NCBI GenBank assembly: GCA_963834425.1
Contig: CAWIBR010000008.1
Coordinates: 132,534-196,533 of the forward strand
Length of the DNA stretch: 64,000 nucleotides
Source of the DNA: an uncultured Actinomycetota bacterium
Lineage (GTDB): Bacteria; Actinomycetota; Actinomycetes; Actinomycetales; CAVURS01
Direction: 5' to 3'
Part shown: positions 48,309 to 48,343 of the stretch, piece after piece
How positions within the stretch are numbered: position 1 is the first letter of the stretch
Layout of the letters: the number at the start of each line of letters is the position of its first letter
The notes under the pieces: generated by a model
The model's database searches: none
What the model saw: the letters and a program-made list of their open reading frames with translations, nothing else
Told to the model about the DNA's origin: nothing
Translations under genes and position numbers: made by a program

Positions 48309-48343
48309 GCCCACGGACGGGCATCGCAACTCGCCAAGGACGG
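48309..48343 (+). promoter_or_regulatory. Candidate CsrA sites in the flbD-motAB leader: the hairpin GCCC-ACGGAC-GGGC (identical to the fliC leader 14-mer), plus CCAAGGACGG at the Shine-Dalgarno
   Basis: Hairpin at 48309-48322. AAGGA at 48336-48340, 8 nt before the flbD GTG at 48349. Confidence 0.5.

What the first reader, a model, noticed from the sequence alone, without database searches (positions are those of the whole stretch)
48309..48343. The exact 14-nt GGA hairpin of the fliC leader recurs ahead of flbD-motA-motB, suggesting CsrA control of the stator operon
GCCCACGGACGGGC occurs only twice in my reading of the window: at 34045 (31 nt before the fliC ATG) and at 48309 (27 nt before the flbD GTG). 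In both cases a second GGA overlaps the Shine-Dalgarno; here it is CCAAGGACGG, 8 nt before the start. A 14-mer identity at equivalent positions in two leaders is unlikely by chance in 64 kb.

More CAAGGAC motifs lie in the loop of the upstream inverted repeat (48198-48204) and in the flhA leader, within a possible CGGT-tcaaggacgg-ACCG hairpin at 56321-56338.

In the best-studied Gram-positive system, CsrA is described essentially as a flagellin-specific repressor. A second target at the stator/FlbD operon would extend the FliW-CsrA checkpoint from filament synthesis to motor energisation.
Basis: partly seen in the sequence, partly recalled or inferred. Interest (0 to 1): 0.7.

Follow-up and report, generated by a model that had tools for sequence, protein, structure and literature searches.

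The report
Likely CsrA site before stator operon
A small RNA hairpin that displays the letters GGA, identical to the one in front of the flagellin gene, also sits in front of the flagellar stator genes and is conserved across motile actinobacteria. This predicts that the translational repressor CsrA controls much more of the flagellum than flagellin alone.

Summary
GCCCACGGACGGGC occurs exactly twice in the window: 31 nt before the fliC ATG and 27 nt before the flbD GTG. Each copy is followed by a GGA inside the Shine-Dalgarno sequence.

The element is not a dispersed repeat. In 149 related loci, all 11 exact copies lie in flbD or fliC leaders.

About 100 flbD leaders from genomes and soil metagenomes share one layout:
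- a sigma-28/WhiG-type promoter;
- a short GC stem with an A-N-GGA-N loop, whose stem covaries;
- CCAAGGACGG over the ribosome-binding site, about 25 nt downstream.

This is the textbook two-site CsrA target. The cluster encodes both csrA and fliW. flbD, motA and motB have overlapping stop and start codons.

Many flhA leaders in other taxa have them too. The prediction is a CsrA regulon covering most flagellar operons.

Two side claims fail or remain ambiguous:
- The upstream inverted repeat is not conserved.
- The flhA hairpin overlaps a predicted -35 box.

This is a new predicted member of a known regulatory kind.

The parts
48273..48298 (+). Predicted sigma-28/WhiG(FliA)-type promoter of the flbD operon: CTCAG, 15 nt, GCCGAT. 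The transcription start is inferred at about 48305-48307.
   Evidence: One of five matches to the pattern in the window. CTCAG and GTGGCCGATGG are conserved against L002 while the flanks diverge. The same layout is seen in about 100 flbD leaders. Consensus from PMC13595943.
48307..48324 (+). GGA hairpin GUGCCC-ACGGAC-GGGCAU (core 14-mer 48309-48322, loop GGA 48315-48317). Predicted high-affinity CsrA site at the 5' end of the flbD mRNA.
   Evidence: Forms in the minimum-free-energy and centroid folds. A-N-GGA-N hexaloop with a stem of at least 4 bp. Stem covariation across 19 distinct leaders. Third-best hit in the window for a model trained only on fliC leaders of other taxa.
48334..48343 (+). 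CCAAGGACGG overlapping the flbD Shine-Dalgarno sequence (GGA 48338-48340, 23 nt after the loop GGA). Predicted second, ribosome-occluding CsrA site.
   Evidence: Sequence. CCAAGGACGG(A) is nearly invariant in flbD leaders from Kineococcus to Micromonosporaceae and soil contigs. CA[AG]GGA at the Shine-Dalgarno region in 29 of 39 metagenome leaders, against 3 of 52 for motA.
48349..48648 (+). flbD (GTG start).
   Evidence: Pfam PF06289, E 9.6e-21.
48645..49415 (+). motA. Its start (GTG 48645 or ATG 48648) overlaps the flbD stop (GTGATG).
   Evidence: Pfam MotA_ExbB and MotA_N. Junction sequence.
49412..50359 (+). motB. Its ATG overlaps the motA stop (ATGA).
   Evidence: Pfam MotB_plug and OmpA. 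Junction sequence.
34006..34031 (+). Predicted sigma-28-type promoter of fliC: CTCAG, 15 nt, GACGAT.
   Evidence: Pattern match. Conserved against L002.
34045..34058 (+). fliC leader GGA hairpin GCCC-ACGGAC-GGGC (loop GGA 34051-34053). The equivalent of binding site 1 of the B. subtilis hag leader.
   Evidence: The fliC-leader model R1 scores 34040-34091 at 27.4 bits, E 1.3e-6.
34070..34083 (+). fliC Shine-Dalgarno site GUUC-ACGGAG-GAGC (GGAGGA 34076-34081), 25 nt after the hairpin GGA. The equivalent of binding site 2.
34089..34953 (+). fliC (flagellin). It carries a net +1 frameshift in this assembly.
   Evidence: Translation. Alignment to the intact L002 gene.
37427..37442 (+). flgB leader hairpin 1: GAGCG-ACGGAU-CGCUC.
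   Evidence: Conserved as GAGC(A/G)-CGGA-GCUC in most flgB leaders.
37449..37463 (+). flgB leader hairpin 2: GGCCA-UGGAC-UGGCC. It is followed by the Shine-Dalgarno sequence GGGAGCG (GGA 37494-37496) and the flgB GTG at 37504.
   Evidence: At least one GGA-loop hairpin plus a Shine-Dalgarno GGA in 52 of 77 flgB leaders; two tandem hairpins are visible in most printed leaders.
56321..56338 (+). Hairpin CGGUUC-AAGGAC-GGACCG upstream of flhA. It overlaps a predicted promoter (TTCAA 56324-56328, 16 nt, GCCGAT 56345-56350). Its status as a CsrA site is ambiguous.
   Evidence: Second-best R1 hit in the window (16.1 bits, E 0.004). Promoter read from the sequence. It lies 80 nt from the Shine-Dalgarno GGA.
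56405..56414 (+). flhA Shine-Dalgarno region CCAGGGAUGG (GGA 56409-56411; ATG 56428). It matches the CARGGAUG core of the CsrA consensus.
   Evidence: The same CAGGGAUGG occurs in Actinoplanes flhA leaders, which also carry two upstream GGA hairpins.
60300..60548 (+). csrA.
   Evidence: Pfam PF02599, E 9e-22. The best solved-structure match is B. subtilis CsrA (1t3o), aligned over 71 residues including the C-terminal extension.
29429..29884 (-). fliW, the protein antagonist of CsrA. It is the last gene of flgN-flgK-flgL-fliW.
   Evidence: Pfam PF02623, E 5.8e-25. Matches Geobacillus FliW 5dmb_A.

Best explanation
The flbD leader is a two-site CsrA operator on the mRNA of the flbD-motA-motB (and downstream) operon.

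Transcription from a sigma-28/WhiG-type promoter (48273-48298) would give a leader of about 43 nt. Its extreme 5' end folds into a short GC stem that presents A-C-GGA-C as a hexaloop (48307-48324). A second motif, CAAGGAC, covers the Shine-Dalgarno sequence 23 nt downstream.

A CsrA dimer (gene at 60300-60548) would dock on the hairpin, bridge to the Shine-Dalgarno site and keep the 30S subunit off flbD. Because the flbD stop overlaps the motA start (GTGATG) and the motA stop overlaps the motB start (ATGA), repression would pass to the stator proteins. FliW (29429-29884) would relieve repression when it is not held by cytoplasmic flagellin.

The same device sits on the fliC leader. The flgB leader carries two hairpins, and many taxa have them on flhA. 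CsrA-FliW is therefore predicted to set translation of most flagellar operons, not of flagellin only.

Shown here: the sequences, the fold, conservation, covariation, presence of the genes, and the overlapping codons. Inferred: the transcription start, CsrA binding, the direction of the effect, and FliW antagonism.
For: 1. Match to the published site definition. That definition is a GGA in an A-N-GGA-N hexaloop on a short stem, a second site over the Shine-Dalgarno sequence, and bridging over 10-63 nt (PMC7652899). B. subtilis hag has two GGA stem-loops about 25 nt apart (PMC8523840; PMC13443453). The window has hexaloop ACGGAC on a 4-6 bp stem, a Shine-Dalgarno GGA, and a 23 nt spacing.

2. 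Conservation.
- 29 of 33 genome loci have a GGA-loop hairpin of at least 4 bp in the flbD leader.
- In an independent soil-metagenome set, 37 of 39 unique flbD leaders have one of at least 3 bp, against 14 of 52 before motA and 3 of 22 before fliL.
- Without any hairpin pre-selection, the minimum-free-energy fold puts a non-Shine-Dalgarno GGA in a hairpin loop in 46 of 70 flbD leaders. Shuffles give 3.95; motA gives 0 of 51 and fliL 0 of 21.

3. Covariation. Five of six stem pairs change on both sides (GCCC/GGGC, GACCC/GGGUC, GGGCC/GGCCC and others). The covariation score is 0.387 against 0.143 in shuffles (0 of 500 reach it), and slid controls reach at most 0.10.

4. Cross-detection. A covariance model built only from fliC leaders of other taxa ranks fliC first, the flhA-upstream hairpin second and the flbD hairpin third in the window; everything else has E above 2. 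Over 3.2 Mb searched, about 25 of the 37 non-fliC hits are flbD leaders.

5. Specificity. The literature-defined hexaloop descriptor hits the window six times, all on the + strand inside the flagellar cluster. Five hits are in fliC, flgB, flbD or flhA non-coding DNA. In 80 loci, 88 of 228 hits lie within 130 nt upstream of FliC, FlgB, FlbD or FlhA starts, against 0 of 79 loci for FlgC and FliF.

6. Phylogenetic footprint against the closest relative. Only the -35 box, the stretch from the -10 box through the hairpin, and the Shine-Dalgarno-to-start stretch are conserved. The exact 14-mer persists in Kineococcus, whose FlbD is only 51-57% identical.

7. The proteins. csrA and fliW are in the cluster, and CsrA has the FliW-type C-terminal extension.

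8. Translational coupling is visible in the gene junctions.
Against: - There are no binding, transcription-start or expression data for any actinobacterial CsrA.
- The hairpin alone scores only 13.3 bits with the fliC-trained model (E 0.03 in the window, 0.69 over all loci).
- The number of A-N-GGA-N hairpins in the window (6) does not exceed a Markov expectation (6.7). Only their placement is unusual.
- Stems of 5-7 GC pairs in some taxa are more stable than the stems of 4 bp or fewer favoured in SELEX.
- The hairpin sits at the very 5' end of the predicted mRNA, which also fits a plain stability element.
- Four of 33 genome loci and a few metagenome contigs lack a clear hairpin.
- The same motifs on the flgB operon, which holds early genes, do not fit a simple 'late-gene checkpoint' logic.
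- This assembly carries many frameshifts, so function in this particular organism cannot be assumed.
Confidence: 0.65

Rival explanations
1. CsrA binds the same sites but acts positively. By coating the 5'-terminal hairpin it protects the flbD-motAB mRNA from 5'-end-dependent decay, as CsrA does for E. coli flhDC, so that CsrA promotes stator synthesis instead of blocking it.
For: The hairpin starts within a few nucleotides of the predicted 5' end. The flhDC precedent is two CsrA sites near the 5' end that protect against RNase E (PMC7652899).
Against: The second conserved motif lies exactly over the Shine-Dalgarno sequence. That is the geometry of repression by ribosome exclusion, as in glgC and hag. 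The fliC leader, a known repressed target type, has the same layout and spacing.
Confidence: 0.12
2. The hairpin is a CsrA-independent 5'-terminal stem-loop shared by sigma-28-dependent flagellar mRNAs. It would stabilise the mRNA or recruit another factor. The GGA in the loop and in the Shine-Dalgarno sequence would reflect other constraints.
For: Its position at the 5' end is conserved: the distance from the -10 box to the loop has a median of 22 nt. There is no experimental link to CsrA. No Rfam family matches.
Against: A stability hairpin needs a stem, not an invariant loop. Here the stem varies and covaries while A-N-GGA-N stays fixed. The unusual CCAAGGACGG Shine-Dalgarno context is conserved well beyond what ribosome binding requires. 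csrA and fliW are embedded in the same clusters.
Confidence: 0.13
3. The element works at the DNA level, as a palindromic operator or an initially transcribed sequence that tunes the sigma-28-type promoters of fliC and flbD.
For: It lies about 10-15 nt downstream of the -10 box (9 and 13 intervening nt in the window). The whole stretch from the -10 box to the hairpin is invariant between the window and L002.
Against: Protein operators conserve the sequence of their arms. Here the arms change while staying complementary. The distance from the -10 box varies from 9 to 59 nt. The element always comes with a Shine-Dalgarno GGA, which has no meaning for DNA.
Confidence: 0.05
4. The identical 14-mers are a chance repeat in GC-rich DNA.
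For: 141 independent repeats of at least 14 nt exist in the window.
Against: This 14-mer is expected 0.01 times. Both copies sit at equivalent leader positions. All 11 copies in 149 loci are in flbD or fliC leaders.
Confidence: 0.01

Closest known systems
Bacillus subtilis hag (flagellin) leader with CsrA binding sites 1 and 2, and the Hag-FliW-CsrA partner switch
   Same: Two GGA sites about 25 nt apart, the upstream one in a stem-loop and the downstream one over the Shine-Dalgarno sequence. Sigma-28-family promoter. FliW-type CsrA with a C-terminal extension. fliW in the flagellar cluster.
   Different: In B. subtilis the described target is flagellin. Here the same device also precedes flbD-motA-motB and flgB (and flhA in many relatives). 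Nothing has been tested experimentally in Actinomycetota.
Campylobacter jejuni CsrA-FliW regulon (RIP-seq, PMC4894983)
   Same: CsrA binds many flagellar mRNAs besides the major flagellin (flaG, flaB, flgI and others). FliW and the flagellin mRNA titrate it. A motA 5'UTR enrichment of 10-fold was seen in one strain.
   Different: A different phylum, and a flagellar hierarchy with sigma-54 and sigma-28 tiers. There the motA signal was weak and strain-dependent, while here the flbD/motAB leader is the best-conserved non-flagellin site.
E. coli glgC leader (high-affinity hairpin plus Shine-Dalgarno site bridged by one CsrA dimer)
   Same: Same geometry and the same presumed mechanism of ribosome exclusion.
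   Different: A metabolic gene. CsrA is antagonised there by the small RNAs CsrB and CsrC, not by FliW.
WhiG1/FliA (sigma-28 family) promoters of actinobacterial flagellar clusters (PMC13595943)
   Same: -35 box xT(C/A)Ax and -10 box GCCGA. Flagellin and FlbD were the two most frequently predicted targets in that study. This matches the promoters found here upstream of both hairpins.
   Different: That work concerns transcription only. The leader RNA motifs downstream of those promoters were not described in the passages of that paper that I retrieved.

Membership tests
CsrA/RsmA two-site repressed mRNA leader | GGA presented in the loop of a short hairpin, ideally an A-N-GGA-N hexaloop | tested here: met
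   GUGCCC-ACGGAC-GGGCAU at 48307-48324. It forms in the minimum-free-energy and centroid folds and matches the strict descriptor. Definition from PMC7652899.
CsrA/RsmA two-site repressed mRNA leader | Second GGA-containing site overlapping the Shine-Dalgarno sequence or start codon | tested here: met
   CCAAGGACGG at 48334-48343; its GGA ends 8 nt before the GTG. Conserved in nearly all flbD leaders.
CsrA/RsmA two-site repressed mRNA leader | Inter-site distance compatible with bridging by one dimer (10-63 nt) | tested here: met
   23 nt in the window. The median is 27.5 nt, with 28 of 30 flbD leaders within 10-63 nt. For fliC the median is 27 nt and 43 of 43 are in range.
CsrA/RsmA two-site repressed mRNA leader | RNA structure maintained by selection (covariation) | tested here: met
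   Five of six pairs have changes on both sides, and 0 of 500 shuffles reach the score. Caveat: the sequences were chosen by a hairpin finder. The unselected fold test agrees.
CsrA/RsmA two-site repressed mRNA leader | Specific binding by the cognate CsrA protein | not testable with these tools
   Needs a gel shift, a footprint, or RIP/CLIP.
CsrA/RsmA two-site repressed mRNA leader | CsrA-dependent change in translation in vivo | not testable with these tools
   Needs reporter fusions in csrA and fliW mutants.
FliW-CsrA-flagellin partner-switch system | csrA gene whose product has the CsrA fold, the key RNA-binding residues and a C-terminal extension | tested here: met
   PF02599, E 9e-22. Aligns to B. 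subtilis CsrA over residues 1-71, including L2, L4, R6, the conserved R of YREE, and the extension.
FliW-CsrA-flagellin partner-switch system | fliW gene in the flagellar cluster | tested here: met
   PF02623, E 5.8e-25. Matches 5dmb_A. FliW is present at the edge of 32 related loci, and csrA lies next to it in the two loci that reach far enough.
FliW-CsrA-flagellin partner-switch system | Flagellin leader with a hairpin GGA plus a Shine-Dalgarno GGA | tested here: met
   34045-34058 and 34070-34083. 41 of 53 fliC leaders in relatives have both.
FliW-CsrA-flagellin partner-switch system | FliW binds CsrA and flagellin in a mutually exclusive way | not testable with these tools
   Biochemical property.
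Sigma-28/WhiG1(FliA)-dependent promoter | -35 box xT(C/A)Ax, spacer of about 16 nt, -10 box GCCGA | tested here: met
   CTCAG-N15-GCCGAT at 48273-48298 and CTCAG-N15-GACGAT at 34006-34031. Only five matches in 128 kb. Consensus from PMC13595943.
Sigma-28/WhiG1(FliA)-dependent promoter | Mapped transcription start and sigma-factor dependence | not testable with these tools
   No transcriptome data. The A. missouriensis transcription-start paper (PMC4966450) is not held.
Any described RNA family (Rfam 15) | Match at the gathering score | tested here: not met
   No hit in the whole window. Only two chance miRNA hits with E above 0.09 in 48080-48400.

The most novel reading that the evidence does not exclude
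In flagellated Actinomycetota, CsrA-FliW may not be a flagellin-only homeostat. It may instead be the general translational checkpoint of the flagellar regulon.

The leaders of the sigma-28/FliA-dependent operons fliC, flgB (rod, hook, export gate), flbD-motAB (stator, switch, export) and often flhA all carry A-N-GGA-N hairpins plus GGA Shine-Dalgarno sites.

This would supply the assembly-coupled ordering that transcription does not provide in these bacteria. In A. missouriensis all flagellar genes share FliA-type promoters, and losing FliQ does not change transcript levels (PMC13083903).
Probability: 0.3. Interest if true: 0.7.

Novelty: new member of a known kind. Interest (0 to 1): 0.55.

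Why it matters
CsrA in Gram-positive-type systems is usually presented as a flagellin-specific repressor controlled by FliW. A conserved, covarying CsrA-type operator on the stator operon, and on the flgB operon, would mean that in a whole phylum the checkpoint also gates motor energisation and basal-body synthesis.

It also offers a concrete, testable answer to an open question raised for Actinoplanes missouriensis. There all flagellar genes are transcribed from FliA-type promoters without a hook-basal-body checkpoint, and post-transcriptional control has been suspected but not identified (PMC13083903).

The motifs give exact mutations to make (loop GGA, Shine-Dalgarno GGA) in organisms that can be handled genetically.

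Tried and rejected
1. A crude 'non-coding mask' to count repeated 14-mers with both copies intergenic failed. Spurious high-GC3 ORFs cover the leaders, and frameshifted genes look non-coding. I did not use it.

2. Looking up the window's MotA in the contig index, to find the source organism and more flanking DNA, found no exact match with either V or M as first residue. The source remains unknown. The closest relatives are two uncultured Actinomycetales/Actinomycetota MAGs, with FliG 89-91% identical.

3. The MAFFT alignment of whole flbD leaders (A3) misplaced the 3' stem arm in Kineococcus. I replaced it with an ungapped GGA-anchored alignment (A5).

4. The loose descriptor 'any GGA-loop hairpin plus Shine-Dalgarno GGA plus ORF' gave many hits inside genes. 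I replaced it with tables per gene start and with the literature-defined hexaloop descriptor.

5. I first read GCCGAAAA at 33997 as the -10 box of fliC. Comparison with L002 and the spacing rule showed the promoter is CTCAG-N15-GACGAT at 34006-34031.

6. I considered the inverted repeat at 48178-48225 as part of the regulatory RNA. I rejected this because it lies upstream of the promoter and is not conserved in L002.

7. The generic sigma-70 promoter and terminator scan of 48000-48400 found nothing.

8. The A. missouriensis transcription-start paper could not be read.
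Full report
**Setting**

The window is about 70% GC and holds an actinobacterial-type flagellar cluster. The gene order is:
- fliW-flgL-flgK-flgN on the minus strand (29.4-32.8 kb);
- a sigma-28-family sigma factor gene, then fliC (34089);
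- fliD, fliS, flgB (37504), flgC, fliE, fliF, fliG and on to flgD and flgE (ends 48075);
- flbD (48349), motA, motB, fliL, fliM, fliN, fliO, fliP, fliQ, fliR, flhB;
- flhA (ATG 56428), an flhF-like gene, and csrA (60300-60548).

The gene calls rest. The source genome is not in the collections. The nearest relatives are two uncultured MAGs with FliG 89-91% identical, followed by Kineococcus at about 60%.

**The observation**

GCCCACGGACGGGC is present exactly twice, at 34045 and 48309. It ends 31 nt before the fliC ATG and 27 nt before the flbD GTG. Shuffles expect 0.01 exact copies. Both copies are followed by a GGA in the Shine-Dalgarno region: GGAGGA at 34076-34081, and CCAAGGACGG at 48334-48343.

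The window contains 141 independent repeats of at least 14 nt. The placement and the conservation carry the weight, as follows.

**Anatomy**

A sigma-28/WhiG-type promoter pattern (CT[CA]A, 16-17 nt, G[CA]CGA[TA]) has only five matches in 128 kb. Two of them lie immediately upstream of the two hairpins: 34006-34031 and 48273-48298. The published actinobacterial WhiG1/FliA consensus is the same, and that study found flagellin and FlbD to be the two most frequently predicted targets (PMC13595943).

With a start about 7 nt after the -10 box, each hairpin lies at the extreme 5' end of a leader of 43-50 nt. The flbD hairpin (GUGCCC-ACGGAC-GGGCAU) forms in the minimum-free-energy and centroid folds. 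The loop GGA and the Shine-Dalgarno GGA are 23 nt apart in flbD and 25 nt apart in fliC.

The flbD stop overlaps the motA start (GTGATG), and the motA stop overlaps the motB start (ATGA). Control of flbD initiation should therefore propagate to the stator genes.

**Comparison with relatives**

I fetched 80 genome loci anchored on FliG and printed the leaders.

Nearly all flbD leaders show the same order of parts:
- CTCAGG, about 15 nt, GCCGAT;
- a GC stem of 4-7 bp with loop A(C/A/G)GGA(C/A/U);
- CCAAGGACGG(A) 5-8 nt before the start codon.

A GGA-loop hairpin of at least 4 bp is found in 29 of 33 loci. The stem changes while staying paired (GCCC/GGGC, GGCCC/GGGCC, GACCC/GGGUC, GGGCC/GGCCC, GUGCCC/GGGCAC). 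On 19 distinct sequences, five of six pairs carry changes on both sides. The covariation score is 0.387 against 0.143 in shuffles (0 of 500), and slid controls reach at most 0.10.

Against the closest relative, L002, only three islands are conserved. They are the -35 box, the stretch GTGGCCGATGGGAAGGCGTGCCCACGGACGGGCA, and CCAAGGACGGT.AACCGTG. Everything between and upstream has diverged. The exact 14-mer survives in Kineococcus flbD leaders although FlbD is only 51-57% identical there. In all 149 loci, the 11 exact copies are all in flbD or fliC leaders.

**Independent replication**

A second set of 69 soil-metagenome contigs anchored on MotA gave 39 unique flbD leaders.

| Upstream region | GGA-loop hairpin, at least 3 bp | At least 4 bp | CA[AG]GGA at the Shine-Dalgarno region |
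|---|---|---|---|
| flbD | 37 of 39 | 21 of 39 | 29 of 39 |
| motA | 14 of 52 | 5 of 52 | 3 of 52 |
| fliL | 3 of 22 | 0 of 22 | 0 of 22 |

Without any hairpin pre-selection, folding positions -58 to +3 of 70 unique flbD leaders puts a non-Shine-Dalgarno GGA in a hairpin loop in 46 cases. Shuffles give 3.95 (maximum 8). The figures for motA and fliL are 0 of 51 and 0 of 21.

**Is it the same element as in fliC?**

I built a covariance model from 23 fliC leaders of other taxa, leaving out the window and L002. I then scored every position of the window.

| Rank | Position | Feature | Bits | E-value |
|---|---|---|---|---|
| 1 | 34040-34091 | fliC leader | 27.4 | 1e-6 |
| 2 | 56321-56338 | hairpin upstream of flhA | 16.1 | 0.004 |
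| 3 | 48309-48322 | flbD hairpin | 13.3 | 0.03 |

Everything else has E above 2.

Over all 81 sources, the 53 fliC leaders come first. About 25 of the next 37 hits are flbD leaders. A few others are fliL or flgE leaders of other taxa. Each flbD hit is individually marginal, but their concentration at one gene start is not.

**Match to the CsrA site definition**

The published definition has three parts (PMC7652899):
- a single-stranded GGA in a hairpin loop, most often an A-N-GGA-N hexaloop on a stem of about 4 bp;
- a second, lower-affinity site over the Shine-Dalgarno sequence;
- bridging by one dimer over 10-63 nt.

B. subtilis CsrA binds two GGA stem-loops in the hag leader, at A51-A55 and C75-G82. 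The flbD leader meets all the sequence-level criteria.

Across relatives the GGA-to-GGA spacing has a median of about 27 nt for both flbD and fliC. The cluster encodes CsrA, which aligns best to B. subtilis CsrA including the FliW-binding C-terminal extension, and FliW.

I tabulated 'GGA-loop hairpin at -75 to -17 plus a Shine-Dalgarno GGA' for every recognisable gene start.

| Gene start | Leaders with both features |
|---|---|
| FliC | 41 of 53 |
| FlbD | 24 of 33 |
| FlgB | 52 of 77 |
| MotA | 1 of 30 |
| FlgE | 1 of 41 |
| FliF | 0 of 70 |
| FlgC | 0 of 80 |
| FliG | 0 of 44 |

All other genes fall between 0 and 3%.

flgB leaders usually carry two tandem hairpins plus AAGGAGC over the Shine-Dalgarno sequence. 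In the window these are GAGCG-ACGGAU-CGCUC (37427-37442), GGCCA-UGGAC-UGGCC (37449-37463) and GGGAGCG before the GTG at 37504.

The strict hexaloop descriptor hits the window six times. All hits are on the + strand, within 34-56 kb. They fall in the fliC leader (twice), flgB, flbD, one inside fliO, and upstream of flhA. The total equals a Markov expectation of 6.7.

In 80 loci, 88 of 228 hits lie within 130 nt upstream of FliC, FlgB, FlbD or FlhA starts. FlbD has the highest occupancy, at 24 of 32 loci. Micromonosporaceae flhA leaders carry GGCGACGGAUCGCC and GCCAGGACGGC upstream of CAGGGAUGG.

**The side claims**

The CAAGGAC at about 48198 lies in the loop of a 50-nt inverted-repeat element that also occurs upstream of flhA. 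The element is upstream of the predicted flbD promoter and is not conserved in L002. Its second copy has no GGA in the loop. It is therefore not a credible CsrA site.

The flhA hairpin at 56321-56338 is a good A-N-GGA-N hairpin. However, its 5' half is the -35 box (TTCAA) of a predicted promoter (16 nt, then GCCGAT at 56345-56350), and it lies 80 nt from the Shine-Dalgarno GGA. It would be in the mRNA only through read-through from flhB. I leave it open.

**Mechanism and logic**

The most likely mechanism is repression by ribosome exclusion through a bridged CsrA dimer, relieved by FliW, as for hag and glgC. For flbD-motAB this would tie stator synthesis to flagellin export. That is the same logic that makes motAB late genes in enteric bacteria, reached by a different route.

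The same motifs on flgB do not fit a pure late-gene checkpoint. They fit better the Campylobacter jejuni situation, where CsrA binds many flagellar mRNAs and is titrated by FliW and the flagellin mRNA (PMC4894983).

Rival readings are CsrA-mediated 5'-end protection as in flhDC, a CsrA-independent stability hairpin, and a DNA-level element. Each is listed with its test.

**Novelty**

I found no paper describing CsrA sites on actinobacterial flbD, flgB or flhA leaders. The Kineococcus radiotolerans genome paper proposed only a binding-site-2-like match at flagellin. No Rfam family matches.

In A. missouriensis all flagellar units use FliA-type promoters, transcription does not respond to loss of FliQ, and post-transcriptional control is suspected (PMC13083903). 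These motifs give that idea a concrete, testable form.

I classify the finding as a new predicted member of a known kind of regulatory element, with a plausible wider reading given under the novel case.

Noticed in passing
window 34089-34953 (fliC); also 35096-36492 (fliD), 38590-41235 (fliF/fliG fused), 41890-43240 (fliH/fliI), 50435-50900 (fliL), 55144-56301 (flhB C-terminus): Many genes appear frameshifted. fliC has a net +1 shift relative to the intact gene in L002. Overlapping same-strand ORFs in the non-flagellar part (for example 7230-8444/8312-10327 and 20414-24557) suggest the problem is general. L002 has its own breaks, with FlgK split into five pieces. The likely cause is indel errors in long-read MAG assemblies rather than decay of the flagellar genes.
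   Followed up: partly
window 48178-48225 and 56259-56306: A roughly 50-nt inverted-repeat element, TTGTCAGCA(C)...(G)TGCTGACAA, occurs upstream of both flbD and flhA and shares the 16-mer CCTGGTGCTGACAACT. It folds strongly if transcribed (z -4.0 and -3.6). The flbD copy is not conserved in the closest relative, L002. It may be a lineage-specific operator or a small mobile repeat.
   Followed up: partly
window 37427-37442 and 37495-37505: [quoted passage not shown] This gives a possible switch between a GGA-presenting hairpin and a start-sequestering helix. In 26 of 57 flgB leaders of relatives, the minimum-free-energy fold pairs hairpin 1 with the Shine-Dalgarno/start region. I ran no shuffle control.
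   Followed up: partly
window 28236-28261 and 28307-29359: A sigma-28/WhiG-type promoter match (CTAAG...GCCGAT) precedes a GGDEF diguanylate cyclase gene next to the flagellar cluster. This suggests a link between the flagellar sigma factor and c-di-GMP.
   Followed up: no
window 53000-53013: One more strict A-N-GGA-N hairpin (UGCC-ACGGAU-GGCA) lies inside the end of fliO, 77 nt before the fliP GTG (53090). It could be an internal CsrA site in the polycistronic mRNA, or chance.
   Followed up: no
window 32833-32808 (minus strand): The divergent flgN-flgK-flgL-fliW operon has a clean CTCAGG...GCCGAT promoter but a leader of only about 18 nt, with no room for a GGA hairpin. fliW itself may therefore escape the predicted CsrA control.
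   Followed up: no
L072:283-489 and L078:149-355 (minus strand), Actinoplanes csrA: The csrA gene's own ribosome-binding region reads GGAUGGAGGA, which hints at autoregulation. In these genomes csrA lies next to fliW, as in B. subtilis, whereas in the window and in Kineococcus it follows flhA and flhF.
   Followed up: no
L022:20636-20679, L017:13056-13090, L066:16134-16176; L034, L036, L042 and L052 at about 12.0-16.2 kb (just upstream of flgE): In some taxa the fliL leader, and in Streptosporangiales-like loci the flgE leader (GACGGC-ACGGAA-GCCGUC), also carry GGA hairpins. The set of leaders bearing the motif therefore varies between lineages.
   Followed up: no
fliC leaders of Micromonosporaceae, e.g. 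L043:3490-3543: A third conserved box, (G/A)GACCCC, sits between the hairpin and the Shine-Dalgarno sequence of fliC leaders. It often supplies a third GGA. Its role is unknown.
   Followed up: no
window 48133-48160: A GC-rich hairpin, GGGGCACC...GGGUGCCCC, followed by UUCGUGUG lies after the flgE stop. It looks like a terminator separating the flgB-flgE unit from the flbD unit, although the strict terminator scan did not call it.
   Followed up: no
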